The position numbers and the translations under genes were made by a program. DNA of 47,728 nucleotides, filler included, from Jimgerdemannia flammicorona (lineage: Eukaryota), in the NCBI GenBank assembly GCA_003990765.1. It is 2 parts of 2 records of this genome, joined end to end, with 100 filler letters (N's around TTAATTAATTAA, not from the genome) between each part and the next. Parts side by side here need not be neighbours in the genome. Positions count along the whole stretch, not along the records: positions 23,919 to 47,728 come from RBNJ01001061.1; 1 more part is not named here. One strand, given 5' to 3'. This document shows, in pieces, positions 1,534 through 41,000 of the stretch (its first letter is position 1; each line of letters starts with the position of its first letter). The notes under the pieces were generated by a model. That model searched no databases. It was not told the origin of the DNA and saw only the letters and a program-made list of their open reading frames with translations.

Positions 1534-1549
1534 TGGGCTCAACTGGAAA
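1534..1549 (+). promoter_or_regulatory. Primer-binding site (degenerate), probably tRNA-Pro
   Basis: TGGGCTCAACTGGAAA 2 nt after the LTR; copy B has the fuller TGGGGGCTCAACTGGGAA; TGGGGGCTC is the tRNA-Pro-type PBS start. Confidence 0.75.
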
Positions 1550-2096: not shown

Positions 2097-5000
2097 ATGG
2101 CCACCTCATTGCCAAATTTTGCAGGATACCCAGAGGAGGACCCCAGAGAATTCCTTGATGGAATTGAAGGAATCGCAGCCTTGAGAAACCTCTCAGATGA
2201 AAGAAAAATAGCCATCTACAAAGCCCAGCTCAGAGAACCAGCCAGAGGAATTTTTCATCGAACAGCAAACAACTAAGATTCAGAACTAGCAAGATAGATA
2301 TAAGCAGCAATGTCTTATGAGCTAGAATATGAGGCCATGGTCCACTGGCTCATCGAAAAATATGCAGGAAATGAAACCTGCCACAAGGCTCAGGAATCTA
2401 TCATGGGAATGAAGATGAATCTTAGAGAATCACCCAGAGCCTTCTTTACAAAAATCCAGAAGAGAATGCATTCTGTCAGATTCAATGCCACCAACCAAGA
2501 CATCATAGGTCCAATGACCTTCATGAATGGAATTCCTCCGAATATTGCCCAGCATGTCCACACCCTAGGCATCAGAAGGTCTGAAGAGCAAGTAGATGCA
2601 GCCCAAGGATTCTTTGATATCAGGCAAGGAACTACCTGGAGTGACCATGACAAGAAGGAAGATAAAGAAGATATCCTAGTCAAAGCCCTGCAAGGACTCC
2701 TTCAAGGACAAGAAAGGTCTGAAGAAAGAAGGCCAGCCAAGAAAGAAAAGAAGGACAGAAGTGAAATTCAAGACCTCAGCTCCAAGTTAGACCGATTGGT
2801 TGGGCAGATTGAAAAACTCACCACATGCGAAAATCAGGACTACCAAAACAACAGAGGATACCCACCACAGAGGAGCCAAGGTTATCCACCAAAAGATAAT
2901 AGGAATTACTAGCAAGAAGAAAGAAGGTACCCTGCCTGAGACAGAGCCCAAGTTCAATACTTCTACTGTGGACAATTCGGACACTATGCCACTGAATGTG
3001 ACAATAAAAGAAGTGACCAAAGGGACTCAGAACTACCAAACCAAAGGAATGACACTCAGTACAAGAAGACTGAAGCCCATCCTGTTGAAGATTTCAAGGA
3101 AGCAAGCAACAGTGAAGACTACAGTGACCTAGACTTGTATCCTACTAAGGTTACTACCCAAAAGACAGTCTATCCAGCAGAAAAAAGAAAGAGACCTGTG
3201 GGAAGACCATCCAGGAACATCAGCAGAAGAATCATTCAAGAAGAAGATGAAGAACATGAGGAGGAACAAGTTGAAACACCTCCCCGAACCCCCTCACCTT
3301 TAGTGCCTGAGACAAACGAGTTGCCACCAGAAGATGAAGAAATGGAACAAGAAGAATGGGAACCTGCTGCTCCAAAGTCTAAGAAGAAGTACACCCCGAA
3401 GACCATGCCTAGGGATATTTACAATGAAGCCTGGCAGAAGATTCAAGAAGCCAAGATGGAAGTCTCTCTCCTGCAGTTCTTGCAACTGACACCAGCTGGA
3501 GTCCTAAACAAATTGCTGAGAACCACCAGGTCTAGCACTGGCCGAGTTCCAATCCCACAGCAAGAACCAGCTTCCATCCCTGTCCAAGCAGCTGAAAGAC
3601 ATGTTAGCACCTACCTACATGGAGATATTGGAGGACAAAAAGCAAAAATCCTCATAGACACAGGAGCAGCTGTCTGTGTCATTGCCAAACGATTCCTGGA
3701 CACCCTCCAATGGCCCATTGATGGACCATCCAACCTCAGCATCATAGTAGCAGATGGAGCCCGAACTCAACCCCTTGGAGAAGTATGAAATATCACCATC
3801 TCCCTTGGACACATTCAGTTCTCTATCCCCAAAGCTGTTGTCACCGAAGCTGTCACCTATGACATGATTCTTGGCACCAACTGGATGAAGGAAATGAATG
3901 CAGTTATTGATATTGGCCAATAAGTACTCAAGTTTAACTACTGAGGCAAGAAGTATAGAGTCAAGGTGACTAGCTATGAGCAATCAAAGAAGAAGAAGAA
4001 GGTCACTATTTAAGAAGAATATACCAGTAGTAAGGAGTCTACTACAGAAGAGAAAGAAGAATCCAAAGATGGAAATGATCCCAGACTCAATCCCCGAATC
4101 AATCTGGTGGATGACAGACCAGAAGACAATGTGTGGGCCAAGAAAACTATCCCTATCACTATTGGAGCCATTGCAGGGGAAGCCAAAGGATGCCCTACAT
4201 GCCTCAAGAGACACAAGTGTCCTGAGCACTCCTCCAAGATTATTGGAAAAAGGAAATCGCCTGGTGCAGCCTGCCCAGAATGCAGAAGAAAGAAGAAGAA
4301 ATGCAGACATGTTCCAGAAATACCTGCGACCAAAGCTGCAGAAGTACAAGCAATTTGGGGTCAAGAATCATCTGAGGAAGAAGAAACTTCTGACCAAGAA
4401 GTTCCTGAACAAGAAGCACCTAATGAAGAAGAAGTCCCTGAACTCATCCCCTGGGATGACCCTCACTGGACACCATCTGAAGACAATGACCCCTGGAATA
4501 CAGAGAAAGAACCCAGTACCATCACCATTATCCCTAAGAAAGAAACCCACCAAGAGAAAGCTTTCCAGCTAGAAAGATGTTCACATCAAATGGTCTTCCA
4601 CTCTTCCCGAGACTACTACTATCAGTGTCATCTGTTGGATCAACAAGAAAGACAGAGACCCCAGAGACCAGAACCCCCAACTACTCTTGCACAGTCCACC
4701 ACCTTTCAAGAGGTCACCACAAGGTTACAAAGTCAATTTAGGGGACAAGGCTTCTTTACCCAGATAGAAATATACCCCTTGTCTACCCTTCCCCCAACCT
4801 ATGATCAGGATGGGTACCGATTCCCAAGACAACAAGAGATAAATAGCTGGAAACATCATTTCTGAGCAATGGGATATTGCAACTACAGGAGACACCCTGA
4901 TTGTCGAGATTACAGACATCAGAAGATCCACCTCAGCCATGATGTTACAGTACACACCTTGAAGAAGGGAGATAACCGAAGTCAGATTCGAAAAAGTCAG

Positions 5001-6098
5001 ATTCGAAAAAGCCAGACCAAAAAGCCTGGAAAAAGAATTCTCAAGATCTACAATTTGGGAGAAGACATCCTAGCCCTCATCAGACATATAACCCGCCAAG
5101 GATGGGCAGAAGATGCCACCAACTTCATGGAAGCCCTTGACTCTACAGGAAGGAGGGGAATCAATTACCTCCAAGACCCCTCCACTGGAGCCAGATGGCC
5201 ACACCTCAACCTTAGAGCTTGGAGACTTTCTGCTAGTGGAGCTTCAGCCTTAGGAAAGCCTGAACTCAGCAAGGACATTGCCCAGTATGCCCTGCTGTAC
5301 CCTAAGGCCAAACCCCTGATCAAAGTCCACCCAGAGGATGTAGGATATGATCTTCACAGCCTGGAGGATGAATCTATCAAGCCTGGAAAAACCTTCATGG
5401 TCAGAACTGGATTAGCCATGTAACCACCTCAAGGAGCTTATATTCAACTGACCTCAAGGTCCGGACTTGCCAGACAAGGGATAACTGTAGAAGGAGGAAC
5501 CATTGACCCTGGATATACAGGCGAAATCAAGGTCATCCTACACAACAGCAGTACAGAATGGCACTGAATCATTAGAGGACAGAAGATTGCCCAAGCAGTC
5601 TTCATGAAGGTCAAGACCCCACAGTTACAGGAAGTCTCTGAACTAACTGAAGGAACAAGACAAGCCAAGGGATTTGGAAGTTCAGACAGGAAAGAGGTAT
5701 ATCTCCTTCAAGTCAACCACCTCAAGAGGAATGTTCCCCAGCAAGTATACCAGCAACCAGTCAGACTGCACAAGAATCTCATCCTGGAGCCTGAAGAACA
5801 AACCACTTTCGAAATCTTTGCACCACCCAACCCCAGAAACCTTTTCTTTGAACCCAAGGAAGATATCTCACACCTAGACATAGAGGGACATACATTCCCT
5901 GACAAAATGAACCCAGTACACTCCTGAGCAACCAACCAAAGTTGAGAGACCATCATCCTGCCAAAAGGAACCATCATAGGACATCTGGTGCCTTTTCTCA
6001 ACCGAACTCATAGGGAAGTTTATGAACTAAACCTGTTGGGAAATGGCAAAAGGTCCCAGAAGAAAGGAAAGGCCCCTCTGCGACCCAGGAGACAGTGA
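2097..6098 (+). pseudogene. gag: ORF1: Gag-aspartic protease-Cys/His-rich region-dUTPase-dUTPase-like domain polyprotein with premature stops
   Basis: ORF fragments starting 2310, 3135, 4107, 4869 and 5604 are all in one frame; LPNFAGYPEEDPREFL Gag start; zinc knuckle (C>Y)FYCGQFGHYATEC at ~2958-2999; protease ILIDTGA at ~3648-3668. Confidence 0.88.
5337..5687 (+). pseudogene. dut: Trimeric dUTPase domain within ORF1 (two in-frame stops)
   Basis: All five motifs: GYDL, SRSG, GTIDPGYTGEIKV, GQKIAQ, RQAKGFGSS. Confidence 0.93.
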
Positions 6099-7511
6099 AG
6101 CCTTCCACCAACATTGGAGAAGAATTGACACCTCAACAACAGCAACAATTAGTAGAACTTCTCAACAAATATCAAGATATCTTCACTACCAATTATGGCA
6201 ACCTGCCATACAATCCATCATATCACCACAGCATAAATACAGGAAGTGCAACACCCATCTGGCAGAAACCCTATAGAATACCCCATCACTTGAAAACATT
6301 CAAAAAAGAGTACATCTAAGAACTCTTAGACAATGGAGTCATCTGACCCTCCACCAGCCCCTGGGCCAGCCCTATACTTATTGTACCAAAGAAAGGATGA
6401 TGGAGACTCTGCATAGATTACAGAAAACTCAACTCAGTCACTGAAAAGGATGCTTATCCTTTGCCCAGAATCGATGACCTTTTGGACCAGTTACAAGATG
6501 CCAGATACTTCAGCAGTATGGACCTCTTTGCAGGATTCCATGAAATCTCCATGGACCCCAAAGACATTCAAAAGACAGCCTTCCTTGCCCTAGGAAAACT
6601 GTTTGAATACCTCTGAATGCTCTTTGGACTTTGCAATGCACCCCCTACCTTCCAGAGGATGATGAATTCAGTCTATGCCCCCTTGATCCACCACTGTCTG
6701 ATTGTATACATGGATGATTCCAACATCTATTCAGCAAATTTCGAAGAACACCTGCACCACCTGGAGGAATTCTTCAAGCTCACCTGCAAGAATCACTTGA
6801 GACTGAATGCAAAGAAATGCTACTTTGGAAAACAGAAACTCAAATTCCTGGGATTTGTGGTCTCAAAAGAAGAAACTCATACAGACCCAAAGAAAACTGA
6901 GAAGATCAACAATTGGCCAGTACCCAAGACTCCAAAAGAAACACTATCATTCCTGATACTAGTATCCTACTACAGAGGGTTCATTAAGGATTTTGCCCAA
7001 ATCGCTGCCCCAATCTGAATCCTTCTCAAGAAAGGAATGACATTCAAATGGACAGAATCACAGGAAAAAGCCTTTAGAGAACTCAAGAACCACATGACTA
7101 CAGCACCAATCCTTGTGCGCCCCAATCTACAGAAGCTATTCATCTTGTACACAGATGCTTCCAAAGATGGCCTAGGAGCAGTTTTAGCTCAAGAAGGACC
7201 TGACCAACAGTACTATGTAATAGCTTATGCAAGCAGAGCCACTAACCAGTAGCAGATGAACTATGGTAGCACCAAACTGGAATGTCTTGCAGTCATATGG
7301 GTGGTCACTCTGTTCAAGCAATTACCTCATCGGAAAAAGATTCACCCTGATCACAGACCATACAGCCCTCAAATGGCTATTCAACTATAAGAAATCTACT
7401 GGAATTCTAGCCTGCTGGATCCTCATCCTTCAGGATTACAAAATCACCATTATATACAAAGCAGGGAAAGCTCATAACAATGTTGATGTACTTTCCCGCC
7501 AGCCCCAATGA
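6038..7511 (+). pseudogene. pol: Reverse transcriptase-RNase H, in the -1 frame relative to ORF1; stops plus a copy-specific +1 frameshift near 7320
   Basis: SPWASP, WRLCIDYRKLN, DAYPLPRIDD, FGLCNAP, YMDD (6707-6718); RNase H YTDAS, TDH, HNNVDVLSR. Confidence 0.93.
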
Positions 7512-8584
7512 ATCAGAGGAAGGGTGTCCTGAGAAACCACACTCTAAAGGAAGCTCCTCAGACTATCAAAGCACAAGAAGATCTTATCCAAAAAGAACAC
7601 CAGAAAGCCCACCAAGGACAGACAAGCATAGAAGACAAGATTTGAAAACAATATCAACATTGGCCCCACCTCAGAACTCAAGTTTGGGACATCATCCAGA
7701 AATGTGACATCTGCCAGAAGTACCAAGGAAAGAAGAACTATCAAGCTCCTCTGCAACCGATTCCCCCACCCATTCACATCTTTCAAAGATGGAGAGTAGA
7801 TGTAATTGGACCTCTACCAGTTACACCAAGAAGAAACAAATATATCCTTGTATTTGTAGAACATCTGACAAAGTGGCCTGAGGCTTTCCCAATGGAAATC
7901 GCAGATGCCTTAACCATTGTAGGCCTCCTCCATGGACTCACACTCAGATATGGACCTCCTGAAGAACTCATTTCTGACCAAGGCACAGAATTCATCAACA
8001 ACATAATCACAAGTTATGCCCGAATTCACAAGATCCACCTCAAAAGGACCACATCATACCACCCCCAGACCAATGGCATGACAGAAAGAATGAACCAGAC
8101 CATCAAGAAAGGACTTGCCTGAGTCAACCCTACTAATTGGGACCTCTGCTTACCTGAGATCCTATGGGAAATTTGGAATACCCCTGCCACATCTACCAAA
8201 TAAAAACCATTCAAAATGATGTTTGCCAAGAAAACCAGAACTGCTGACCATGAGAATCTCGGAGACCTCCTCAAGAAGACAGAACAGTTATGAAATCAAG
8301 CCCAAGGACAGATTATCAAAGCCCAGGAAAGACAAAAGAAGTACTATAACCAAAAACAGAAGGATCAGGAGATCAAGATTGGAGATCAAGTTCTAGTTTG
8401 GAGAAGTATGATTGAGACAAACTTTGCCACCAAACTAGAACCGAAATGGGAAGGACCTTATCTTGTACACAACATCAGAGGAACCAGCATCTATTTAAGA
8501 AGTATGGATGGACGAATCCTGAGAACACCAGTACACATCAATTGCCTCAAGATATACTTCTCACACCATAAACCAGAGAATTGA
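7508..8584 (+). pseudogene. DDE integrase as a separate 358-codon frame with internal stops; GPY/F motif, no chromodomain
   Basis: HHCC (EHQKAHQG...CDICQ), VDVIGPLP, SDQGTEF, NGMTERMN, PKWEGPY; starts at ATG of an ATGA that overlaps the RNase H stop. Confidence 0.9.
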
Positions 8585-9080
8585 CAACTGCCTCCAAACT
8601 CTTGTCCTCAGTTCCCTCTAAGCCCTACCAGTTCCCCTGCCTCAGTTCCGGGAACCCAATGGAACCTATCTTCAGAGAATCTGAGTTCATCAAGAGAACC
8701 TCATCTTGGCCGAGAGGCTACTCCAGGTCCACCAGCTGCAGGCATATTATGCAATTGGAGAACAATTGCAGAATCTTCCTCTCCCAGACCTAGCCTATGT
8801 CTGAAACACCACTGGCCTGAACAGAACGAATACTACTGCTGCAGACAGACTATACACAATATACAAATGAAATCCTTCTGTCTTAGTCTAGGTCCAGTTT
8901 TCCCTGAATGATCTCCAAAGAATGACACTGCCCACCTACCTCAGTATCATTCACCAAGTAGAGACCCTATTTCCTGAAGAAGAAGAAGAGCCCCTGGAAT
9001 GGAGTGACTGCAGCTCAGATAATGATGATGGAACAGGTATAGATGCAGAAGCTGCTTATGCCTATTGGGATGATGACTGA
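8568..9080 (+). pseudogene. Extra 3' ORF (ORF-X) of unknown function, degraded copy
   Basis: Conceptual translation (start ATA, several stops) aligns over its length with intact 32171-32686: QAYYAIGEQLQ, TAADRLYTIYK, FPEEEEEP...AYAYWDDD. Confidence 0.88.
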
Positions 9081-9107
9081 AGAATAGTCTGAGACAGACT
9101 ACCCTTC

Positions 9108-9119
9108 AGTAGGGGCTGA
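9108..9119 (+). promoter_or_regulatory. Short imperfect polypurine tract
   Basis: AGTAGGGGCTGA directly before the 3' LTR (AGTGGGGGCTGA in copy B). Confidence 0.5.
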
Positions 9120-10622
9120 TGTAGCAGACCAAAACATACCACCTGAATTATAACTTAGCCAGATGATACAAATAATTAGCATACTTACTCAGCATGATGT
9201 GACTTCCAGTGTATCATAGTTACTCATGCCTGCCATACTTATAATTAGCCAAGACACCAGATCAGGATTGTATACCTATATCCTGAGGACACACTCATGT
9301 CTGGCAGACACACTCATGTCCTGCAGACACACTCATGTCCTGTGGACACACTCATGTCCTGTAGACACACCTGTACTCAGAGGACACACTCAAACATTAC
9401 CAAAGATAGCAAATCTATAGTTAGCCACATAGTAACCAGCTAGCAACCAACTTGTATAAATTACCCCAGAGATGAGAGTGAATAAAACCTCAGTCCAAAA
9501 AGTCTGAAATTGAAGCAAAAGACAAGTCTGCCTACTATACTTCGAGAGGAACTCTACAGCCACTATTAGGAGATTGTGAGCTTATTTCCCCTTTCCACTC
9601 CGGTCCACTTTCTGATACAAAGAACAAGTTCGTTTTTGGTTCGCTTGCCAGATAAGCCTGAAGAATCCCCATTTTCTACCAAGTTCAAGGAAGAACTTTG
9701 CTGCATTCCCAGAGAAAGCTGCCTTGCCCAAGCCAGTTTCTGATGCAACTTCGCAGTGATCTGTTTGCACAAATGAAGCCAGTCTTTGATGCAACTTTGT
9801 TAAGAGACCCTTTCTAAGTCGCCATCCCATTTCCCAGTTAAAGCCTGCCATTTTTGAGTTATCCACTGTATTCCCAGTTGAAGCCAAGTCCGTGCCATCT
9901 GAGTTAATTCCCAGTTAAGCCGCCATTTTCAAGAAGTCTGCTGATTCAGGAAGAATCCGCGTCATCTGCCATTTTCAAGTTATCCACATTCCCAGTTGAA
10001 GCTGCCAATTCAGGAAGAATCCATGCCATTGTATTTTCAGAAAAGCTGCCGAATCAGGAAGAAACCCGAGTATTGTTCCCAGAAAAGCCATCTGAGTTAT
10101 TCGTTATTCCCAGTGAGTCTGTTATGGAAGAATCCACGCCATACAATTCCCAGTGAGCCGAATTGAGTTATCCACCAAATTATCAGAACATCTGTATAAG
10201 GAACCCATCATGCTACACAGAGATCATCGTGCTATATAAGATTGTCATACAGAAAACATATAAAGAGAACCGCTAAATTGCCAGACTGTCACATACAAGG
10301 AGATCGTCGTGCTACACAGAAATCACCTGTTACTCAAAAAGGAAACCACTTGTGCTACATACAAATTCTGTCATTCCCAGTTGACCCAGGAAGGAAATCC
10401 ATTCACACAAATCACCGCTACATCCAGAGAACTGTCTCAATTAGGAAATCAACATACAAATCACTCACAGATATCCAGCTTTGACTATTATACTGCTAAA
10501 TACCAAGAACCTCAGGAATCTTAGAACATTTTGTTGCTTTTTAACAAAGTAACTGTGGGCTCAAGCCAAACTACATCAACTCCCAACCTTGTAATTTGCC
10601 TCTATTGAGCCAGCACATTACA
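9120..10622 (+). repeat. 3' LTR of copy A (1503 bp)
   Basis: TGTAGC...ATTACA; differs from the 5' LTR mostly by transitions. Confidence 0.96.
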
Positions 10623-30805: not shown

Positions 30806-32131
30806 TGTAATGTGCCTGGCTCAATGGAGGCAAATTACAAGGTTGGGGGTTGATGTGGTTTGGCTTGAGCCCCCAGTTACTTTGTCAAAAAGCAACAAAA
30901 TGTTCTAAGATTCTTAAGGTCCTTGGTGTTTAGTGGTATAATAGTCAAAGCTGGATATCTGCGAGCGATTTCCTTATTGGGACGGTTCTCTGGGTGTAGC
31001 GGCGATTTGTGTGTGAATGGACTTCCTTCTTGGGTCAACTGGGAATTGGTAGAAATTCGTGTGTAGCGCGACGATCTTCCTTATGCGTTTATGCGTGACG
31101 GTCTGGCAATTTGGCGGTTTTCCTTCTTGAGTGGCGGTGTGACGACCTTGTGTAGCGCGACTGGGTTCCTTATGCGGGACGATCTGGTTTCCTTCTTGGG
31201 TGGCGGCGACCTCCAAAAGTATGCGATTTTGGGCGGATAACTCGATTTGGCGCGGATTCTCTTAAATCGGCGGGCTTCTGGGAATAATAACTAGGATGGC
31301 GCGGATAATTCGGATAACTGGGAACAATGCTGGCAGCAGATTCTCTGTACCAGGCTCACTGGGAACAACGAATAACTCGGATGTCGCGTAACTCGGGTGG
31401 CGCGGACTCTTCCTGAATCGGCGGCTTCAACTGGGAATGCGGATAACTCGAAAACGGCAGATGACGCGGATTCTCCGGAATCGGCGGCTCTCTGGCAAAT
31501 AACTCGGATGGCGCGGATTCTTCCTGAATCGGCGGCTTCAACTGGGAAACGTGCTGGCGGCTTTTTGGGAAAGGGTCTCTTGGCAAAGTTGCGTCAAAGA
31601 CTGGCTTCGTTTGCGCGAACGGGTCACAATAATTCCAAAGGCGGCGAAGTTCTTCCTTGAACTTGGGCGGCAAACTCGGATTCTTCAGGCTTAGTCTGGC
31701 AAGAGTACCAAAAACAGACTCGTTCTTTGTATCGGAAAGTGGACCGGAGTGGGGAAATAAGCTCACAATCTCCTAGCAGTGGCTGTAGAGTTCCTCTTGA
31801 AGTGTGGTAGGCAGACTTGTCTTTTGCTTCAATTTCGGACTGAGGTCTTATTCACTCTTGTCTCTGGGGTAATTTATACATTGTGGTTGCTATCTGGTTA
31901 CTATGTGGCTAATTATAGGTTTGCTACTTATGGCAGGTGTACAGAGTCTGTATGGTGTACAGGTCCTGTACAGTGTACAGAGTCTGTACAGGTAAACAGA
32001 CCCTATCTGGTATATCTGGCTAATTATACAGGTTCCACAGCAATGGTTGCTGGTTACTATGCTGTGTGTTCATGTCATCTTGGCTAATTGTTCACGTCAT
32101 CTCATTAAGGTAAACGCCTTGGTTTGTCACA
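30806..32131 (-). repeat. 3' LTR of copy B (1326 bp), CpG-rich
   Basis: Direct repeat of 39701-41000; net +26 bp from a 36-bp and a 10-bp indel. Confidence 0.96.
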
Positions 32132-32170
32132 TCAGCCCCCACTGAAGGACAGTCTGTCTCAGACTGTTCT

Positions 32171-32686
32171 TCAGTCATCATCCCAATAAGCATAGGCTGC
32201 TTCTGCATCTATACCTGTTCCATCATCTTCATTGTCTGTACTAGGATCACTCCATTCTATGGGCTCTTCTTCTTCTTCAGGGAATAGGACTTTGATGGCA
32301 TTGATGAGGCTCAAATAGATAGTAGGGTTCATTCCTTGAATGTTGTTCAGGGAGAACTGTGCCTGTGTCAGAGCTGTGACATTTTGTTTATAAATGGTAT
32401 ATAGTCTGTCTGCAGCAGTAGTATCTCTTCTTGTCAGACTGGTGGTATTTCTGATATAGGTCTGTTCTGGGGCTGGAAGGTTCTGCAATTGTTTGCCAAT
32501 TGCATAATAGGTCTGCAGTTGGTGGATTTGTAGTAGGCATCTGACCAAGGTGAGATTTTCTTGGTAGACTTGGATCTTCTGAAGGGGGTTTCCATTGGCT
32601 TGGCTGAATTGAGGTAGAGGAACTGGTAGGGCTGGGAAGGAGCTGAGGACCAATGTCTGGAGGCACTGATCAATCCTTTGGCTCAT
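32171..32686 (-). CDS. ORF-X: intact 171-aa protein of unknown function with an acidic/aromatic C-terminal tail
   Basis: ATG to TGA with no stops; start overlaps the integrase end; homolog at the same position in copy A; no obvious signal peptide or TM helix. Confidence 0.85.
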   Translation of the reverse strand: MSQRIDQCLQTLVLSSFPALPVPLPQFSQANGNPLQKIQVYQENLTLVRCLLQIHQLQTYYAIGKQLQNLPAPEQTYIRNTTSLTRRDTTAADRLYTIYKQNVTALTQAQFSLNNIQGMNPTIYLSLINAIKVLFPEEEEEPIEWSDPSTDNEDDGTGIDAEAAYAYWDDD

Positions 32687-33747
32687 GGTGTAGGGGAAAG
32701 TATAGTTTGAGGTGATTGATATGTACTGGTGTTCTCAGGGTTCATCTGTCCATGCCTTTTAAATAGATGCTAGTTCCTCTGATATTGTATACAAGATAAG
32801 GTCCTTCCCATTTGGGTTCCAGTTTGGCAACAAAATTTGTTTTAATCATACTTCTCCAAACTAGTACTTGATCTCCAATCTTGATCTCCTGATCCTTCTG
32901 TTTTTGGTTATAGTACTTCTTTTGTCTCTCTTGGACTTTGATAATCTGTCCTCAGGCTTGATTACATAACTGTTCTGCCTTCTTGAGGAGGTCTCCAAGA
33001 TTCTCATGGTCAGCAGTTCTGGTTCTCTTGGCAAACAATTTCGAATGGCTTTTATTTAGTGGAGGCAGCAGGGGTGTTCTGAATTTCCCATAGAATCTCC
33101 AGTAAGCAGAGGTCCCAATTAGTAGGATTGACTCAGGCAAGTTCTTTCTTAATGGTCTGGTTCATTCTCTCTGTCATGCCATTGGTCTGAGAGTGGTATG
33201 ATGTGGTCCTTTTGAGGTGGATCTTGTGAATTCAGGCATAACTTGTGATTATGTTGTTGATGAATTCTGTGCCTTAGTCAGAGATAAGTTCTTCTGGGGG
33301 TCCATATCTGAGTGTGAGTTCATGGAGGAGGCCTACAATGGTTAAGGCATCTGTGATTTCCATTAGAAAAGCCTCAGGCCACTTGGTCAGATGTTCCACA
33401 AGTACAAGGATATATTTATTTCTTCTTGATATAACTGGTAGAGGTCCAATTACATCTACTCCCCATCTTTGGAAGATGTGAGTGGGTGGGGGAATTGGTT
33501 GCAGGGGGGCTTGATAGTTCTTCTTTCCTTGGTACTTCTGGCAGGTGTCACATTTCTGAATGATGCCACAGACTTATGCTCTGAGGTGGGGCCAATGTTG
33601 GCGTTTTGTTCACAACTTTTCTTCTATATTTGCTTGTCCTTGATGGGCTTTCTGATGTTCTTTTCAGATGAGGTCTTCTTGTGCCTTGATGGTCTGAGGA
33701 GCTTCCTTTAGGGTGTAGTTCCTTGGGACACCCTTCTTCTGGTTCAT
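32670..33747 (-). pseudogene. Integrase of copy B (stops and a 2-nt deletion near 33035)
   Basis: Same HHCC, DDE and GPY motifs and the same ATGA overlap (33744-33747) as copy A. Confidence 0.88.
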
Positions 33748-35219
33748 TGGGGCTGGTGGGAAAGTACATCAACATTGTTGTGGACTTTTCCTGCTTTGTA
33801 GATGATGGTGATTTTGTAATCCTGAAGGATAAGAATCCAGTGGGCTAGGATTCTGGTGGGTTCCTTGCAGTTGAATAGCTATTTGAGAGCTATATGGTCT
33901 GTGACTAGAGTGAATCTTTTTCCAATGAGATAATGTTTAAACAGGGTGACTGCCCATATAACTGCAAGGCATTCCAGTTTGGTGCTACCATAGTTCATCT
34001 GCTGCTAATTGGTAGCTCTGCTTGCATAAGCGATTACATAGTACTGTTGATTGGGTCCTTTTTGGGCTAGAACTGCTCTGAGGCCATCTTTAGAAGAATC
34101 TGTATACAATATGAATGGCTTCTGTAGATTGGGGCACATAAGGATTGGTACTGTAGTCATGTAGTTCTTGAGTTCTTTGAAGACTTTTTCTTATAATTCT
34201 GTCCATTTGAAGGGTACTCCTTTCTTGAGAAGGATCTGGAATGGAGTGGCAATTTGGGCAAAATCTTTGATAAACCTTCTGTAGTAGAATACTAGTATCA
34301 GGAATGATAGTGTTTCCTTTGAGGTCTTGGGTACTGGCCAATTATTAATCTTCTCAGTTTTCTTTGGGTCTGCATGGATTCCTTCTTTTGAAACTATGAA
34401 TCCAAGGAATTTGAGTTTCTGTTTCCCAAAGTAATATTTCTTTGTATTTAGCCTCAAGTGGTTCTTATAGATAAGCTTAAAGAATTCCTCTAGGTGGTGC
34501 AGATGTTCTTCGAAATTTGCTGAATAGATGTTGGAATCATCATCCATGTATACAATCAGGCAGTGGTGGATCAAGAGAGCATAGACTGAATTCATCATTC
34601 TCTAAAAGGTGGGGGGTGCATTGCAAAGTCCAAAGGGAACTCATAGATATTCAAACAGTTTTCCTAGAGCAAGGAAGGTGGTCTTTTGAATGTCTTTTGG
34701 GTCCATAGGGATTTCATGAAATCTCATAAAGAGGTCCATACTGCTGAAGTATCTGGTATCTTGTAACTGGTCCAAAAGGTCATCAATTCTTGGCAAAGGA
34801 TAGGCATCCTTTTCAGTGACTGAATTGAGTTTCCTGTAATCCACACAGAGTCTCCATCCTCCTTTCTTCAGTACAATAAGTATATGGCTAGCCCAAGGGC
34901 TGGTAGAGGGTCAGATAACTCCATTGTCTAAGAGTTCTTGGATGTGCTCCTTTTTGAATGTTTTCAAGTGATGGGGTATTCTATAGAGTTTCTGCCAGAT
35001 GGGTGTTGCATTTCCTGTATTTATACTGTGGTGATATGATGGATTGTATGGTAGGTTGCCATAATCAGTGGTGAAGATATCTTGATATTTGTTGAGAAGT
35101 TCTGCTAGTTGTTGTTGTTGTTGAGGTGTCAATTCTTCTCCAATGTTGGTGGAAGGCTTTACTGTCTTCTGGGTCACAGAGGGGCCTTTCCTTTCTTCTG
35201 AAACCTTTTGCCATTTCTT
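33744..35219 (-). pseudogene. pol: RT-RNase H of copy B
   Basis: DYRKLN, DAYPLPRIDD, YMDDD (one-codon duplication); same frame offset from ORF1 as copy A. Confidence 0.9.
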
Positions 35220-38200
35220 GATAGGTTTAGTTCATAAACTTCCCTGTGAGTTCGGTTGAGAAAGGGTACCAGGTGTCCTATGATGGTTCCTTTCAGCAAG
35301 ATGACAGTTTCCCAACTTTGGTTGAATGCTTGGGAGTGTACTGGGTTCATCTTGTCAGGGAATATGTGTCCCTCTATGTCCAGGTGGGGGATATCTTCCT
35401 TGGGTTCAAAGAAAAGGTTTCTGGTATCAGGGGGTATGAAGATTTCAAAGGTTGTTTGTTCTCTGGGCTCCAGGATAAGATTTTTGTGCAGTCTAACTGG
35501 TTGCCAGTATACTTGCTGGGGAACATTCCTCTTGAGATGGTTGACTTGAAGGAGATATACTTCCTTCCTGTCTGAGCTTTCAAACCTCTTGGCTTGTCTT
35601 GTTCCTTCAGTTAGTTCAGAGACTTCTTGTAACTGTGGGGTCTTGACCTTCATGAAGACTGCTTGGGCAATCTTCTGTCCTCTAATGATTCAGTGCCATT
35701 CTGCACTACTGTTGTGTAAGGTAACCTTGATTTCGCCTGTATATCCTGGGTCAATAGTTTCTCCTTCTACATACCATTATTCCTTGTCTGGCAAGTCCAG
35801 ACCTTGAGGTCAATTGGATATAAGATCCTTGGGGTGGCTGTATAGCTAATCCAGTTCTAATTATGAAGGTTTTTCTGGGTTTGATAGATTCATCCTCCAG
35901 GCTGTGAAGATCATATCTTACATCCTCTGGGTGGGCTTTGGTCGGGGGTTTGGCCTTGGGGTGCAGCAGGGCATACTGGGCAATATCCTTGCTGAGTTCA
36001 GGCTTTCCTAAGGCTGAAGCTCCACTAGTGGGAAACCTCCAAGCTCTAAGATTGAGGTGTGGCCATCTGGCTCTAATAGAGGAGTCTCAGAGATAGTTGA
36101 TTCCCCTTCTTCCTATAGGGTCAAGGGCTTCCATGAAGTTGGTGGCATCTTCTGCCCATCCTTGGCAGGTTGCATGTCTGATGAGGGCTAGGATGTCTTC
36201 ACCTAAATCATAGATCTTGAGGGTCCTTCTCTCTTGCTTTTTGGTCTGGCTTTTTTGCATCCAGCTTTTTCGAATCTGGCTTCAGTTATCTCCTTTCTTC
36301 AAGGTGTGGACTGCAATATCATGACTGAGATGGATCTTCTGTTATCTGCAGTCTCGGCAGTCTGGGTGTCTTCCATGGTGGCAATACTCCATTGCTCAGA
36401 AATGATGTTCCTGGTTATTGATCTCTTATTGTCTTGGGAAATGGTACCCATCTTGGTCATAGGTGGGTGGAAGAGTAGACAAGGGATATATTTCTGTCTG
36501 GGTGAAGAAACCTTGTCCCCTGAATTGGCTTTGCAACTTGATGGTGACTTCTTGAAAGATAGTTGACTGTATAAGTGTGTTCAGGAGTTCTGGTCCCTGG
36601 GGTCTCTGTCTCTCCTGTTGGTCCAACAGATGACACTGATAACAGTAGTCTTGGGGAGAGTGGAAGACCATTAGGTGTGGACATCTTTCTAGCTGAAAAG
36701 CCTTCTCTTAGTGAGTTTCTTTCTTGGGGATAATGGTAATTATACTGGGTCCTTCTTCTATATTCCAAGGGTCATTATCCTCAGGTGGTATTCATGAGGG
36801 TCATCCCAGGAAATGAGTTTGGAGACTTCTTCCTCTTCAGGTATTTCTTGTTCAGGAACTTCTTAGTCAGAAGTTTCTTCTTCCTCAGATGATTCTTGAC
36901 CCAAAATCACATGTATTTCTGCAGCTTCAGTTGCAGGTATGTCTGGAACATGTCTGTATTTCTTCTTCTTTCTACACTCTGGGCAAGCTGTGCCAGGTGA
37001 TTTCCTTGTTCCCATGATCTTGAAGGAGTGCTCAGGACACTTGTGTCTCTTGAGGTATATAGGGCATCCTTTGGCTTCTCCTGCAATGGCTCCAATGGTG
37101 ATAGGGATGGTGTTCTTGGCTCACACATTGTCTTCTGGTCTATCATCCACCAGATTAATCCAGGGATTGAGTCTGGGATCATTTCCATCTTCAGATTCTT
37201 CTTCTTCTGTAGTAAACTTCTCACTGCTGGCATATTCTTCCTGAATAGTGACCTTCTTCTTCTTCTTTGATTGCTCATAGCTAGTCATCTTAACTCTGTA
37301 CTTCTTGTCTTAGTAGTCAAACTTGAGTACTTATTGGCCAATATCAACAACTGCATTCATTTCCTTCATCCAGTTGATGCCAAGAATCATGTCATTGGTG
37401 ATAGCTTCAGTGACAACAGCTTTGGGGATGGAGAACTGAATGTGTCCAAGGGAGATGGTGATATTTTATACTTCTCCCAGGGGTTGAGTTCAGGCTCCAT
37501 CTACTACTATAATGCTGAGGTTGGATGGTCCATCAATGGGCCATTAGAGGGTGTCCAGGAACCATTTGGCAATAACACAGACAGCTGCTCCTGTGTCTAT
37601 GAGGATCTTTGCCTTTTGTCCTCCAATATCTCCATATAGATAGGTACTGATATGTCTTTCAGCTGCCTGGATAGAGGTGGGAACTAGTTCTTGCTGTGGG
37701 ATTGGGACTTGGCCAGTGCTAGACCCGGTGGTTCTCAGCAATTTGTTTCATACTCCAGCTGGTGTCAGTTGCAGGAACTGCAGGAGGGGGACTTTTATTT
37801 TGGCCTCTTGAATCTTCTGCCAGGCTTCATTGTAGATGTCTCTAGGCATGATCTTTGGGGTATACTTTTTCTTGGACTTTGGGGCAACAGGTTCCCATTC
37901 TTCTTGTTCCATTTCTTCATCCTCTGATGGCAACTCATTTGTCTTGGAGACAAAAGGTGAGGGAGTTCAGGGAGGTGTTTCTGCTTACTCTTCCTCATAT
38001 TCTTCATCTTATTCTTGGATGATTCTTCTGCTGATGTTCCTGGATGGCCTTCTTATAGATATCTTCCTTTTCTCTGCTGGGTAAACTGTTTTTCAGGAGG
38101 TAACCTTGGTAGGGTACAAGTCTTGGTCACTATAGTCTTTACTGTCACTTGCTTCCTCAAAATCTTCTATAGAATAGGCTTCAGTCTTCTTGTACTGAGT

Positions 38201-39157
38201 ATCATTCCTTCAGTTTGATAGTTCTGAGTCCCTTTGATCACTTCTTTTGTTGTCATATTTGGTGGCATAGTGTTCAAATTATCTACAATAGAAGCATTGG
38301 ACTTGGGTTCTATCTCGGACAGGATATCTGCTTTCTTCTTACTGATAATTTCTGTTATATTTTGGTGGATAACCTTGGCTCCTCTGTGGTGGGTATCCTC
38401 TGTTGTCTTGGTAGCCCTGATTTTCATATATAGTGAGTTTTTCAATCTGTCTAATCAGCCAGTCTAACTTGGAGCTGAGGTCTTGAATTTCACTTCTATC
38501 CTTCTTTCCTTCCTTGGCTGGCCTTCTTTCTTTGGATCTTCCTTGTCCTTGGAGATGTCCCTGTAGGGCTTTGACCAGGATGTCTTCTTTCTCTTCTTTC
38601 CTATCATGATTGCTCCAGGTAGTTTCTTGTCTGACATCAAAGAATTCTTAGACTGCATCTACTTGCTCTTCAGACCTTCTAATGCCTAGGGTGTGGACAT
38701 GCTGGGTAATGTTTGGGGAAATTCCATTCATGAAGGTCATTGGGCCTATGATGTCCTGGTTGGTAGCATTGAACCCAGCAGCATACATTCTCTTCTGGAT
38801 TCTTGTGAAGAAGGCTCTGAGTGATTCTCCAAGATTCATCTTCATCTCTATGATGGATTCTTGGGCCTTGTGGCAGGTTTCATTTCCTGCATACTTTTTG
38901 ATAAGCCAGTGGACCATGGCCTCATATTCTAGCTCATAAGACATTGCTGCTTATATCTGTCTTGCTAGTTCTAAATCTGAGTTATTTGCTGTTCAGTGGA
39001 AAATTTCTCAGGCTGGTTCCCTGAGCTGAGCCTTATAGATGGCAATTTTTCTTTCATCTGAGAGATTCCTCAGAGCTGCGATTCCTTCAATTCCATCAAG
39101 GAATTCTCTGGGGTCTTCCTCTGAGTATCCTGCAAAGGTTGGCAATGAGGTGGCCAT
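35160..39157 (-). pseudogene. gag: ORF1 of copy B (Gag-PR-Cys/His region-dUTPase)
   Basis: MSYELEYEAM Gag segment, CFYC knuckle, ILIDTGA protease, dUTPase at ~35570-35924. Confidence 0.87.
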
Positions 39158-39680
39158 TTCATTGTCACTTTCTTCTGATTCTTGTTTGGGTTCAGATCCT
39201 GATTCTGATTCACTTTCTGAACTGTTACTGGAGATATGGGTGCTTGGGTATCTTGGGGATGGTGTTCAGGACAGTGGAATAAGCCTAGGTATTCTTGTAG
39301 GAGCTGCTTCCAATTCTGCAAGGGGTTGTGGTAAAGGTTCTATTAGCAAGGTTGGTGGGACTGATATGGGGCATCTGGCTGTAAGGTCTTAGGTTTGTGT
39401 GATAAGATCTTCTAGTTCTTGTGCAAGTTCTTCGACATTTCTAGCAGGGCTGCCGGTATTGTCTGGTTGATCTGGTTGGGGATTTTGGGCTGTACTGCCT
39501 TCTGGTTGGGAACCTTCTGATGCTGGGTAGTTGGCAAGTTTTGATGTGATTACTTCTCTTCCTGTCCAGATGCTGGTGATAACTGGTTCTCCTGTAGTGG
39601 CAGAGGTTGGTATTGTATCAAATGTATCCAGTTTGACTGTGGGTTCTTGTGAGCTGAAAAGTCATGTTAATTTTGAAATC

Positions 39681-39698
39681 TTCCCAGTTGAGCCCCCA
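39681..39698 (-). promoter_or_regulatory. 18-nt primer-binding site TGGGGGCTCAACTGGGAA (tRNA-Pro type)
   Basis: 2 nt inside the 5' LTR; complement TTCCCAGTTGAGCCCCCA has the form of a tRNA 3' end with CCA. Confidence 0.85.
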
Positions 39699-39700
39699 AA

Positions 39701-41000
39701 TGTAATGTGCCTGGCTCAATGGAGGCAAATTACAAGGTTGGGGGTTGATGTGGTTTGGCTTGAGCCCCCAGTTACTTTGTCTAAAAGCAACAAAATGTTC
39801 TAAGATACCTAAGGTCCTTGGTGTTTAGTGGTATAATAGTCAAAGCTGGATATCTGTGAGCGATTTCCTTATTGGGACGGTTCTCTGGGTGTAGTGGTGA
39901 TTTGTGTGTGAACGGACTCCCTTCTTGGGTCAACTGGGAATTGGTAGAAATTCGTGTGTAGCGTGACGATCTTCCTTATGCATTTATGCATGACGGTCTG
40001 CCAATTTGGCGGTTTTCCTTCTTGAGTGGCAGGTGATCTCTGTGTGATGACCTTGTGTAGCGCGACTGGGTTCCTTATGTGGGACGATCTGGTTTCCTTC
40101 TTGAGTGGCGGTGACCTCCAAAAGTATGCGATTTCTGGCGGATAACTCGATTTGGCACAGATTCTCTTAAATCGGCGGACTTCTGGGAATAATAACTCAG
40201 ATGGCACGGATAATTCGGATAACTGGGAATAATGCTGGCAGCAGATTCTCTGTACCAGGCTCACTGGGAACAACGAATAACTTGGATGTCGTGTAACTCG
40301 GGTGGTGCGGACTCTTCCTGAATCAGCGGCTTCAACTGGGAATGCGGATAACTCGAAAATGGCAGATGACGTGGATTCTCCGGAATCGGCGGCTCTCTGG
40401 GAAATAACTCGGATGGCGCAGATTCTTCCTGAATCGGCAGCTTCAACTGGGAAACGTGCTGGCGGCTTTTTGGGAAAGGGTCTCTTGGCAAAGTTGCGTC
40501 AAAGACTGGCTTCGTTTGTGCGAACGGGTCACAATAATTCCAAAGGTGGTGAAGTTCTTCCTTGAACTTGGGCGGCAAACTCGGATTCTTCAGGCTTAGT
40601 CTGGCAAGCATACCAAAAATGGACTCGTTCTTTGTATCGGAAAGTGGACCGGAGTGGGGAAATAAGCTCACAATCTCCTAGCAGTGGCTGTAGAGTTCCT
40701 CTCGAAGTGTGGTAGGTAGACTTGTCTTTTGCTTCAATTTTGGACTGAGGTTTTATTCACTCTTGTCTCTGGGGTAATTTATACATTGTGGTTGCTATCT
40801 GGTTACTATGTGGCTAATTATAGGTTTGCTACTTATGGCAGGTGTACAGAGTCTGTACAGGTAAACAGACCCTATCTGGTATGTCTGGCTAATTATACAG
40901 ATTCTGCAGCAATGGTTGCTGGTTACTATGCTGTGTGTTCACATCATCTTGGCTAATTGTTCACGTCATCTCATTAAGGTAAACGCCTTGGTTTGTCACA
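39701..41000 (-). repeat. 5' LTR of copy B (1300 bp)
   Basis: Minus strand TGTGAC...ATTACA. Confidence 0.96.

What the first reader, a model, noticed from the sequence alone, without database searches (positions are those of the whole stretch)
32171..32686. Extra non-env ORF (ORF-X) that looks like an element-encoded transcriptional regulator
Seen: a 171-aa ORF between integrase and the 3' LTR in both Gypsy copies. It has no stops in copy B although gag and pol have many. It shows no obvious signal peptide or TM segment, so it is not env-like. It has an amphipathic-looking core (QLQTYYAIGKQLQ...TAADRLYTIYK) and ends in EEEEEPIEWSDPSTDNEDDGTGIDAEAAYAYWDDD. Established: acidic tails with aromatic residues typify Gal4/Gcn4/VP16-type activation domains; foamy virus Tas is a transactivator encoded at this 3' position; VANDAL VANC proteins are sequence-specific anti-silencing factors. 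Inference: ORF-X is a transactivator or anti-silencing protein acting on its own LTR.
Basis: partly seen in the sequence, partly recalled or inferred. Interest (0 to 1): 0.85.

Follow-up and report, generated by a model that had tools for sequence, protein, structure and literature searches.

The report
Conserved extra gene in Gypsy retrotransposon
A small acidic protein gene sits between the integrase gene and the 3' repeat of a Gypsy-type retrotransposon; it is a real gene kept by selection and resembles no known protein, and its proposed role as a transcription activator is still untested.

Summary
The ORF is real: 171 aa on the minus strand at 32171-32686. It starts 17 nt before the pol stop in the +1 frame and ends 39 nt before the 3' LTR of Gypsy copy B. 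It is intact in only one copy. In copy A the homologous stretch has lost its ATG and has 5 in-frame stops. The ORF is not a chance frame. Between three DNA copies, pN/pS is 0.25-0.35 in its frame and 0.8-1.8 in the other two frames. Masking CpG sites changes nothing. Seven full-length intact relatives (169-183 aa, 58-98% identical to each other) keep the same start and end. No match was found in Pfam, in PDB sequences or in four fold searches, and 1.84 billion representative proteins gave only 5 true hits. The protein has a conserved N-terminal Leu/Pro motif, a fast-evolving helical core and a disordered tail of net charge -16 with invariant Trp and Tyr residues. No DNA-binding domain, basic patch, signal peptide or membrane segment was seen. 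The best reading is an element-encoded trans-acting adaptor protein. The transactivator idea survives its own refutation tests but has no positive support beyond tail composition, and the window's own copy narrowly fails a published composition rule. No RNA evidence could be obtained.

The parts
32171..32686 (-). ORF-X: 171 codons plus stop; 19.4 kDa, pI 4.3
   Evidence: Frame-specific purifying selection. Homologues.
32606..32686 (-). Residues 1-27: conserved N-terminal Leu/Ser/Pro-rich motif. The first 17 nt overlap the end of pol.
   Evidence: Mean pairwise identity is 0.76 among 7 full-length members, with invariant Q3 R4 D6 Q10 L12 S15 S16 L20 P21 L24 P25 F27. The overlap is shown.
32285..32587 (-). 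Residues 34-134: predicted helical core. At DNA level this is the fast-evolving part.
   Evidence: AlphaFold2 helices 34-69, 72-81, 86-100, 103-107, 113-117 and 121-134, with block pLDDT 71-86 in the best model. Codons 1-136 are 67-70% identical at nucleotide level between copies, against 83-90% in integrase.
32174..32278 (-). Residues 137-171: disordered acidic tail, net charge -16, with invariant Trp and Tyr residues
   Evidence: Invariant residues are W145 D154 G156 G158 D160 A161 A164 Y165 W168 D170. Copies A and B are 88% identical here at nucleotide level.
32132..32170 (-). 39-nt spacer with a G-rich tract (putative polypurine tract) between the ORF-X stop and the 3' LTR
   Evidence: LTR alignment and sequence. 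The PPT function is inferred from position.
30806..32131 (-). 3' LTR of copy B (TG...CA)
39701..41000 (-). 5' LTR of copy B. It is followed by a PBS-like TGGGGGCTCAAC. The element is flanked by a 4-bp ATAC duplication.
   Evidence: The PBS and the target-site duplication are read from the alignment.
32670..39700 (-). Copy B gag-pol, degenerate (31 in-frame stops). The integrase C-terminal GPY/F module ends at 32670.
   Evidence: Domain order comes from copy A.
8568..9080 (+). Copy A relic of ORF-X: ATG changed to ATA, 5 in-frame stops, tail still readable
28..10622 (+). Copy A, full length (LTRs 28-1531 and 9120-10622): gag(CCHC)-protease-dUTPase-RT-RNase H-integrase-ORF-X relic

Best explanation
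ORF-X is a genuine third gene of this Ty3/Gypsy lineage. The gene order is gag, protease, dUTPase, RT, RNase H, integrase without chromodomain, then ORF-X.

Shown: it has its own ATG, which overlaps the last codons of pol in the +1 frame (17 nt in copy B; ATGA in the metagenome copy L001). It fills the whole space up to the polypurine tract. It has been kept by purifying selection in the lineages that gave rise to these copies. It encodes a soluble, acidic 19-kDa protein with three parts. These are a conserved N-terminal Leu/Pro-rich motif, a roughly 100-residue helical core that evolves about three times faster than integrase, and a disordered tail of net charge -16. The Trp/Tyr-containing motifs of the tail are the best-conserved part of the family.

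Inferred: the protein acts in trans as an adaptor. The variable core would recognise an element-specific or fast-evolving partner. The conserved tail would dock onto one conserved host machine. The gene would be expressed from a spliced or internally initiated subgenomic mRNA.

My odds for the specific job are as follows. Co-activation or anti-silencing of the element's transcription, VP16-style and without its own DNA binding: about 0.2. Acidic chaperone or mimic acting on the basic Gag nucleocapsid, on integrase or on a host nucleic-acid-binding defence protein: about 0.2. Nuclear export or trafficking: about 0.1-0.15. Chromatin tethering for integration: about 0.1. The rest is unknown.
For: Position and overlap. 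L001 shows the same layout, with the pol TGA inside an ATGA.

Selection (Nei-Gojobori). In the ORF-X frame, pN/pS is 0.28 for B vs A (165 codons; 64 of 111 synonymous sites and 62 of 384 non-synonymous sites changed; Fisher p = 9e-17). It is 0.25 for B vs L001 (115 codons) and 0.35 for A vs L001 (112 codons). The two other frames give 0.80 and 1.30 (B vs A) and 0.99 and 1.77 (B vs L001). CpG masking removes 2 of 170 codons and 1 of 118 codons and leaves the ratios at 0.28 and 0.24. As a control, gag-pol between A and B gives omega 0.21 over 1,974 codons. The integrase C-terminus gives pN/pS 0.12-0.15 in frame and about 1 out of frame. Private changes on the B lineage fall 12/4/21 on codon positions 1/2/3.

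Family: 15 protein clusters with E <= 0.01 among 878 candidates. Seven members are full length (169-183 aa) and share the same start and the same ...YW(D/N)DD end; their pairwise identity is 58-98%. A profile search of 1.84 billion representatives gave 6 hits at E <= 0.001, of which 5 are true and none is a long fused form.

Architecture. No relation to the element's own gag was found.
Against: No expression evidence of any kind exists: no RNA run is on record as holding the stretch. The copy in the window sits in a dead element whose LTRs are about 95% identical and whose gag-pol has 31 stops. Its intactness alone is only P of about 0.07. Sites where copy B differs from all soil-metagenome contigs fall 9/5/8 on codon positions 1/2/3 (my tally of the 22 listed sites within the ORF; 217 more sites across the laid stretch were not shown). 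That pattern suggests recent neutral decay.

The structure model is only moderate and unstable. The best of five models has pLDDT 68.9 and the other four have 52-59. With 10 sequences the best model reached only 51.

The adaptor reading rests on architecture and conservation pattern alone. No partner is known.

All family members come from unannotated short metagenome contigs. Gene callers report only open frames, so the count of intact copies is biased upward.
Confidence: 0.55

Rival explanations
1. One reading: ORF-X is a transactivator or anti-silencing factor that acts on its own LTR. The acidic, aromatic tail would serve as the activation domain.
For: The tail has net charge -16, contains W, Y, I and F, and is predicted to be disordered. 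The published composition rule for acidic activation domains (eq. 1 of PMC10550315, passages read) is passed by 5 of 7 full-length members. The gene is under selection and matches no structural or enzymatic family. A variable core joined to a conserved effector tail fits a specificity module plus an activation module.
Against: No DNA-binding domain appears in Pfam, PDB sequences or the fold searches. The core has a net charge of only +5, with no basic cluster or nuclear localisation signal. The window's own ORF-X and P0008 fail the rule (charge -16 and -17, W+F+Y+L = 6). That paper also reports that tiles with long acidic runs are less often activators, and that precision on known human transcription factors is only 18-32% against curated lists. 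The tail is conserved residue by residue, unlike typical activation domains, which keep composition rather than sequence. Many acidic aromatic tails have other roles; this last point is from my own knowledge.
Confidence: 0.2
2. ORF-X is an acidic chaperone or nucleic-acid mimic. The tail would bind a basic surface: the element's own nucleocapsid or integrase, or a host nucleic-acid-binding defence protein. It would thereby help particle assembly or integration, or block silencing.
For: The charge is extremely negative and concentrated in a disordered tail. The core evolves fast, as expected for a host-element or element-specific interface. Selection for the protein is shown. The analogy to acidic mimic proteins comes from my own knowledge.
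Against: No interaction was tested successfully. There is no similarity to any known chaperone or mimic. The motif-level conservation of the tail argues for a specific pocket rather than a general electrostatic mimic.
Confidence: 0.2
3. ORF-X is an export or trafficking factor, analogous to Cer1 CERV or retroviral Rev. It would be needed to move unspliced genomic RNA or the pre-integration complex.
For: There is a precedent. The Ty3/Gypsy element Cer1 encodes a lineage-restricted protein, made from a spliced mRNA, that is required for genomic RNA export (PMC10309623: abstract and sections 9 and 15 read). In ORF-X, residues I5, L9, L12 and L14 fit a leucine-rich export-signal spacing and lie in the most conserved segment. 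That fit is my own reading, and the pattern is recalled. The tail has two Trp-acidic motifs of the kind used by some cargo adaptors (recalled).
Against: There is no RNA-binding motif and no basic region. Export-signal-like patterns are common by chance. CERV is 517 aa and unrelated. There is no RNA evidence for splicing here.
Confidence: 0.12
4. ORF-X is not a separate protein but a C-terminal extension of Pol, reached by a +1 frameshift.
For: ORF-X is in the +1 frame and overlaps the end of pol. Its frame is open 16 codons upstream of the ATG in copy B (stop-to-stop length 187 aa) and 19-41 codons upstream in P0009, P0017 and P0018.
Against: The ATG is kept in copy B and L001. It is also kept in 2 of the 3 protein records that extend upstream (P0009 and P0017 have Met there; P0018 has Ile). 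The upstream open stretch is simply the other frame of the conserved integrase end. No fused long form appeared among 1.84 billion representatives.
Confidence: 0.06
5. ORF-X is a chance open frame with no function.
For: ORFs of this length are not rare in the window: 10 of the 33 ORFs of 100 aa or more reach it. Intactness in copy B has P of about 0.07. Copy A is broken.
Against: pN/pS of 0.25-0.35 is specific to this frame in all three pairwise comparisons, with Fisher p <= 5e-12. Seven intact homologues with up to 42% amino-acid divergence keep the same start and stop.
Confidence: 0.03

Closest known systems
Sense additional ORFs between pol and the 3' LTR (aORF-3S) of plant LTR retrotransposons (Vicient and Casacuberta 2020, PMC7264820, main text read)
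   Same: Same position and strand. Present in the family's copies rather than in one copy. Conserved to a degree comparable with other element proteins. Function unknown.
   Different: The plant examples discussed there are env-like and have transmembrane segments. ORF-X has none and is a small acidic soluble protein. There is no sequence relation. The host here is probably a fungus.
CERV of the C. elegans Ty3/Gypsy element Cer1 (PMC10309623, abstract and sections 9 and 15 read)
   Same: Element-encoded and non-env. Restricted to a narrow lineage. Fast-evolving, with no relatives elsewhere. Acts in trans on the element's own life cycle.
   Different: CERV is 517 aa, shares exons with gag, has three folded domains and a Cys loop, and is made from a 5-exon mRNA. 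ORF-X is 171 aa, lies 3' of pol and has no Cys motif. Its mRNA is unknown.
Foamy virus Tas/Bel1
   Same: A 3'-located accessory gene with an acidic C-terminal region.
   Different: Tas lies after env, is about 300 aa and binds DNA directly (recalled). ORF-X shows no DNA-binding features and no Pfam match.
Herpes simplex VP16 acidic activation domain (recalled; VP16 H1 is an anchor of the rule in PMC10550315)
   Same: An acidic tail bearing aromatic residues on a protein that would have to reach DNA through partners.
   Different: No homology. The ORF-X tail is conserved as a motif and is more acidic, with fewer bulky hydrophobic residues. The window's own copy fails the rule.
brtn, the antisense extra gene of the fungal Gypsy element Boty (Zhao et al. 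2011; seen only as cited in PMC8365987 and PMC7264820)
   Same: An extra gene of unknown function in a fungal Gypsy element, lying between pol and the 3' LTR.
   Different: brtn is antisense; ORF-X is sense and overlaps the pol stop. Sequence relation was not tested because no brtn sequence was at hand.
ORF3 genes of bdelloid rotifer dUTPase-bearing LTR elements (PMC5408684, abstract and sections 3.1-3.4 read)
   Same: Elements with dUTPase between protease and RT, no chromodomain, and family-specific ORF3s after pol.
   Different: The rotifer ORF3s are env-like, GDSL esterase or DEDDy exonuclease, and their LTRs are 159-551 bp. Here there is no enzyme match, the LTRs are 1.3-1.5 kb, and the transposons are CpG-depleted.

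Membership tests
aORF-3S class (sense additional ORF of LTR retrotransposons) | Lies between pol and the 3' LTR on the gag-pol strand | tested here: met
   The pol stop is at 32672-32670, ORF-X spans 32686-32171, and the LTR starts at 32131, all on the minus strand.
aORF-3S class (sense additional ORF of LTR retrotransposons) | Present in the family's copies rather than being a one-off transduction | tested here: met
   It is present in copy A (as a relic), in copy B and in L001 directly after integrase. There are 15 protein clusters. No cellular homologue was found among 1.84 billion representatives.
aORF-3S class (sense additional ORF of LTR retrotransposons) | Constraint comparable to other element proteins | tested here: met
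   Omega is 0.17 for ORF-X and 0.21 for gag-pol between A and B, although absolute rates are about 3 times higher in ORF-X.
Env-like third ORF | Signal peptide and/or transmembrane segment | tested here: not met
   The maximum 19-residue hydropathy is 1.0 and GRAVY is -0.43. No dedicated signal-peptide tool was run.
Env-like third ORF | Similarity to a known envelope or fusion protein | tested here: not met
   Pfam gave no family for the window's ORF-X even at E <= 10, and only 3 weak chance-level rows (best E 0.056) among the other 9 members scanned. BFVD and PDB fold searches gave no match with E <= 0.001.
Acidic transcription activation domain (Gal4/Gcn4/VP16 type) | Acidic composition with W/F/Y/L residues (rule of PMC10550315, eq. 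1) | tested here: inconclusive
   5 of 7 full-length members pass. The window's ORF-X (charge -16, WFYL 6) and P0008 do not.
Acidic transcription activation domain (Gal4/Gcn4/VP16 type) | Intrinsic disorder | tested here: met
   Block pLDDT is 48-52 for residues 141-171. This is a proxy only.
Acidic transcription activation domain (Gal4/Gcn4/VP16 type) | Activates transcription when tethered to a promoter | not testable with these tools
   This needs a Gal4-DBD fusion reporter assay.
Acidic transcription activation domain (Gal4/Gcn4/VP16 type) | Joined to a DNA-binding domain or a DNA-bound partner | tested here: inconclusive
   No DNA-binding family was found. Residues 1-136 have net charge +5. 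A novel domain or a protein partner cannot be excluded.
Foamy virus Tas/Bel1 | Detectable sequence similarity | tested here: not met
   No Pfam family was hit. That Pfam holds a Bel model is recalled, not checked.
Foamy virus Tas/Bel1 | Sequence-specific binding to the element's promoters | not testable with these tools
   This needs DAP-seq, EMSA or ChIP.
VANC anti-silencing proteins of VANDAL transposons | Sequence similarity, and loss of DNA methylation at its own copies | not tested
   No VANC sequence or model was at hand. The function needs methylome experiments.
Cer1 CERV-like export factor | Made from a spliced subgenomic mRNA and required for genomic RNA export | not testable with these tools
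   No RNA run is on record as holding the stretch.

The most novel reading that the evidence does not exclude
ORF-X is a trans-acting regulator encoded by a (probably fungal) LTR retrotransposon. Its fast-evolving helical core would bring it to its own family's LTR or to a silencing factor. Its conserved Trp/Tyr-acidic tail would recruit the host co-activator machinery. That would make this a 'complex' retrotransposon with a Tas/VP16-like or VANC-like gene. The hypervariable core would mark an arms race or family-specific self-recognition.
Probability: 0.15. Interest if true: 0.8.

Novelty: new variant of a known kind. Interest (0 to 1): 0.48.

Why it matters
Extra genes after pol are known in plant, nematode, rotifer and a few fungal LTR retrotransposons, but almost none has a known function. 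Here the gene has clean evidence of selection and no relatives. Its two-speed design pairs a hypervariable core with a motif-conserved acidic tail, which points to an interaction with the host. That makes it a tractable candidate for asking what non-env accessory proteins do for intracellular retroelements. The possible jobs include transcription, counter-silencing, trafficking and targeting. If the tail does recruit the transcription machinery, this would be a retrovirus-style regulatory gene in a retrotransposon.

Tried and rejected
- Own-genome search: no genome is held for this window.
- RNA evidence: no RNA holder is listed. Only three soil-metagenome DNA runs hold small shares (0.05-0.14) of the stretch.
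- Reads laid on the stretch. The family is present as many short contigs at 80-99% likeness (255, 43, 11 and 3 pieces). None of the 12 listed indels falls inside the ORF (5 more were not shown), and no joints were seen.
- Homodimer prediction for residues 1-140: no verdict.
- DNA relatives. Viral contigs gave none for ORF-X or for the integrase end. Genome contigs gave none.
- Structure. For the second model, Foldseek against PDB had a best E of 1.4. VIA-align wide had a best Z of 5.0 over 51 residues, below the noise level stated for helical models. BFVD had a best E of 0.54.
- Sequence. Pfam found nothing meaningful. The PDB profile search had a best E of 0.13, to a P450, judged to be chance. 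The ESM Atlas gave no usable hit.
- Relation to the element's own gag: hhalign probability 0.4% and 0.1%.
- Relation to the 267-aa ORF at 22229-23032, which also ends in YWDND. Pairwise BLASTP gave E = 5e-4 over 48 residues, but hhalign gave only 7% probability over 19 columns. Its homologue P0015 reads through that 'C-terminus'. I rejected it as a relative.
- Host taxon from the LINE-like RT via the Atlas: uninformative.
- Rfam and tRNA scans of the window: nothing.
- Earlier findings of this scan: nothing.
- Literature term searches found no description of this ORF family. These are word searches, not sequence searches. The old .DOC supplement of PMC2864245, which lists structures of fungal elements with an 'add. 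ORF', could not be read and may bear on this.
Full report
WHAT IS THERE

The window holds two full-length copies of one Ty3/Gypsy family in opposite orientation. Copy A is on the plus strand at 28-10622, with LTRs at 28-1531 and 9120-10622. Copy B is on the minus strand at 30806-41000, with LTRs at 30806-32131 and 39701-41000. Its ends are TG...CA, it is flanked by a 4-bp ATAC repeat, and a PBS-like TGGGGGCTCAAC follows the 5' LTR.

Pfam scans of copy A's open pieces give this order: a CCHC knuckle, aspartic protease, dUTPase, RT, RNase H, and integrase with a GPY/F-type end and no chromodomain. Both copies are dead. Copy B has 31 in-frame stops in about 2,020 aligned gag-pol codon positions. 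Copy A's gag-pol is split into at least 13 open pieces.

THE OBSERVATION

The pol frame of copy B runs to a TGA at 32672-32670. ORF-X therefore starts 17 nt inside pol, in the +1 frame. Its stop lies 39 nt before the first base of the 3' LTR.

The protein is 19.4 kDa with pI 4.3. The last 35 residues carry a net charge of -16, and residues 1-136 carry +5. The highest 19-residue hydropathy is 1.0, so nothing looks like a membrane segment.

The statement that the ORF is present in both copies is only half right. Copy A has the homologous stretch (8568-9080, 68% amino-acid identity). There, however, the ATG is ATA and five stops interrupt the frame.

IS IT MORE THAN CHANCE?

By length alone, weakly. 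It is the longest ATG ORF in copy B's interior, and 1% of 300 shuffles reach 171 aa. But 10 of the window's 33 ORFs of 100 aa or more are at least as long. At copy B's own stop density, an intact 171-codon stretch has P of about 0.07 (my arithmetic).

The decisive evidence is comparative. I aligned copy A, copy B and a 1,569-nt metagenome contig (L001). L001 carries the integrase end followed directly by ORF-X, with the pol TGA inside an ATGA. Nei-Gojobori counts in the ORF-X frame give pN/pS of 0.28 for B vs A, 0.25 for B vs L001 and 0.35 for A vs L001. The same columns read in the two other frames give 0.80 and 1.30 (B vs A) and 0.99 and 1.77 (B vs L001).

Masking codons whose differences are CpG transitions removes 2 of 170 and 1 of 118 codons and changes nothing. 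The controls behave as expected. Gag-pol between A and B gives omega 0.21. The integrase C-terminus gives pN/pS of 0.12-0.15 in frame and about 1 out of frame.

THE FAMILY

A word-indexed search of 5.8 billion proteins gave 4 clusters at about 73% identity. Repeating it with a family profile gave 15 clusters with E <= 0.01 among 878 candidates. An exhaustive HMM search of 1.84 billion representatives gave only 6 hits at E <= 0.001. Five are true family fragments. One is a 671-aa repeat protein that I judge spurious from its sequence. No long fused form appeared.

Seven members are full length (169-183 aa). They fall into two clades, about 58-62% identical between clades and 73-98% within. All keep the same start and the same ...YW(D/N)DD end. 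All come from short unannotated metagenome contigs, and none carries a meaningful name. Prokaryote genomes and viral contig collections hold none. Soil-metagenome contigs hold many fragments of the family at 80-99% likeness.

WHAT THE PROTEIN LOOKS LIKE

No known family was found. The searches were:
- Pfam on the window's ORF-X and on ten members;
- a PDB sequence profile;
- the ESM Atlas;
- Foldseek against PDB and BFVD, and a Foldseek-independent search of 48,161 PDB representatives, whose best Z of 5.0 over 51 residues is below the tool's stated noise level for helical models.

There is also no relation to the element's own gag.

With 16 sequences, AlphaFold2 gives a helical domain for residues 34-134, with block pLDDT of 71-86. 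The tail is disordered (pLDDT 48-52) and the N-terminal helix is poorly placed. Only the best of five models reaches a mean of 68.9; the other four are at 52-59.

Conservation comes in three grades. The N-terminal 27 residues have mean pairwise identity of 0.76. The last 16 residues have 0.80 and are the best kept. The stretches 28-41 and 101-136 are the most variable (0.56 and 0.61). Ten tail residues are invariant, including W145, Y165 and W168.

AN UNEXPLAINED FEATURE

At DNA level, codons 1-136 form a hypervariable cassette. They are 67-70% identical in all three pairs. The integrase end just upstream is 83-90% identical, and the tail plus spacer just downstream is 87-88% identical.

Synonymous divergence in the core (dS 1.25, A vs B) is 2.5-6 times that of each of the 13 gag-pol segments (0.19-0.50). 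Yet the ratio of non-synonymous to synonymous change stays low. Exchange of ORF-X cassettes between lineages, or a locally raised mutation rate, could explain this. I could not decide between them.

HOW IT MOST LIKELY WORKS

Shown: ORF-X is a separate, selected, soluble, acidic protein gene placed after pol.

Inferred: it acts in trans as an adaptor. The variable core would bind something element-specific or fast-evolving. The motif-conserved Trp/Tyr-acidic tail would dock onto one conserved host component. The gene would be expressed from a subgenomic mRNA.

In its favour, the tail is acidic, aromatic and disordered. Also, 5 of 7 full-length members pass the published composition rule for acidic activation domains (PMC10550315, passages read). 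Against it, the window's own protein and P0008 narrowly fail that rule. Long acidic runs lower the odds according to the same paper. No DNA-binding domain, basic patch or nuclear localisation signal is visible. And the tail is conserved as a sequence, whereas activation domains usually conserve only composition. I put this reading at about 0.2, in a VP16-like form that reaches DNA through a partner.

Other versions are about equally likely:
- An acidic chaperone or mimic acting on basic Gag/NC, on integrase or on host defence proteins.
- An export or trafficking factor. The precedent is Cer1 CERV (PMC10309623). ORF-X residues I5, L9, L12 and L14 have export-signal-like spacing. That is my own reading, and such patterns are common by chance.
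- A chromatin tether for an integrase that lacks a chromodomain.

A +1 frameshift fusion to Pol is unlikely (0.06), because the ATG is kept where it can be checked. A chance ORF is close to excluded (0.03).

COMPARISON WITH WHAT IS KNOWN

By position and conservation, ORF-X meets the definition of a sense additional ORF between pol and the 3' LTR (PMC7264820, main text read). It is not env-like.

Extra ORFs of unknown function have been drawn for fungal Gypsy elements (legend of Fig. 3 in PMC2864245, passages read). An antisense one, brtn, is known from Boty; I saw it only as cited in PMC8365987 and PMC7264820.

A dUTPase between protease and RT has been reported in basidiomycete elements and in bdelloid rotifer elements. 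The rotifer elements also carry diverse ORF3s (PMC5408684, sections 3.1-3.4 read). PMC2864245 adds Postia, Phanerochaete and Tuber.

A fungal host is more likely than a rotifer, for two reasons. The LTRs are long (1.3-1.5 kb). And CpG depletion is strong and confined to the transposons: CpG observed/expected is 0.00-0.22 in the transposon stretches and 0.68-0.97 in the stretches that are not recognisable transposons. This is an inference, and the host is not known to me.

My five literature word searches found no description of this protein family. They cannot find a sequence, and one possibly relevant supplement could not be read.

VERDICT

The gene is real. The functional label is unproven and is only one of several comparable readings. 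It is a new, unrelated family within the known kind 'additional ORFs of LTR retrotransposons'. Interest is moderate. It rises sharply if the tail proves to recruit the transcription or silencing machinery.

Noticed in passing
window 32279-32686 (ORF-X codons 1-136) against 32670-33360 and 32132-32278: The ORF-X core is a hypervariable cassette. It is 67-70% identical at nucleotide level between three copies, while the flanking integrase end is 83-90% and the tail plus spacer is 87-88%. Its dS is about 3 times that of any gag-pol segment, yet pN/pS stays at 0.25-0.35. The cause is unknown; recombination or local hypermutation are candidates.
   Followed up: partly
window 22229-23461 (+): A 267-aa ORF is followed, after a single in-frame stop, by a 142-aa ORF in the same frame. 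A metagenome homologue (P0015, 63% identity) reads through that stop. The stretch has near-normal CpG content (o/e 0.68), unlike the transposons around it. It is rich in acidic and aromatic residues and has no convincing Pfam match. It was not shown to be related to ORF-X.
   Followed up: partly
window 1-47728, by region: CpG depletion is confined to transposons. CpG observed/expected is 0.00-0.22 in the Gypsy, AT-rich and LINE-like stretches and 0.36 in copy A's 5' LTR stretch, against 0.68-0.97 at 22000-23800, 24000-25300 and 29000-30800. This is consistent with transposon-targeted cytosine methylation and deamination.
   Followed up: partly
window 10700-22000 and 25300-29000: AT-rich tracts (20-35% GC) have almost no CpG. 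In 10700-22000, TA/AT is 1.09-1.16 and (CA+TG)/(AC+GT) is 0.92-1.08, which are RIP-like index values. Translations look like relics of a Copia gag with a zinc knuckle (12393-13013) and of an integrase end with a chromodomain (19854-20096). That is my reading and was not tested against Pfam.
   Followed up: no
window 42000-47728 (+): A GC-rich (54%) non-LTR retrotransposon-like stretch has an endonuclease-like ORF (44114-44611) and RT ORFs (45533-46468, 46628-47554). It has a very strong GC skew of +0.31 to +0.49. The Atlas places the RT among RVT_1 clusters.
   Followed up: partly
window 4014-4865 (+), copy A: A 283-aa open stretch lies between protease and dUTPase with no Pfam match. It is an unusually long linker or an unrecognised domain in pol.
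   Followed up: no
window 23819-23862 and 23875-23918: Two runs of 44 N each (an assembly gap), followed by a short poly-A-encoded Lys run in translation.
   Followed up: no
window 39750-39780 and 39685-39700 (copy B); 1460-1480 and 1532-1546 (copy A): A sequence very like the PBS (…CTGGGGGCTCAAG…) is also present inside the LTR, about 60-70 nt before its 3' end, in both copies. Its meaning is unknown.
   Followed up: no
window 31937-31991 (3' LTR of copy B): An 18-nt tandem repeat has 3.1 copies. The 5' LTR of the same element lacks about 36 nt here, so the two LTRs differ by a repeat-unit change.
   Followed up: no
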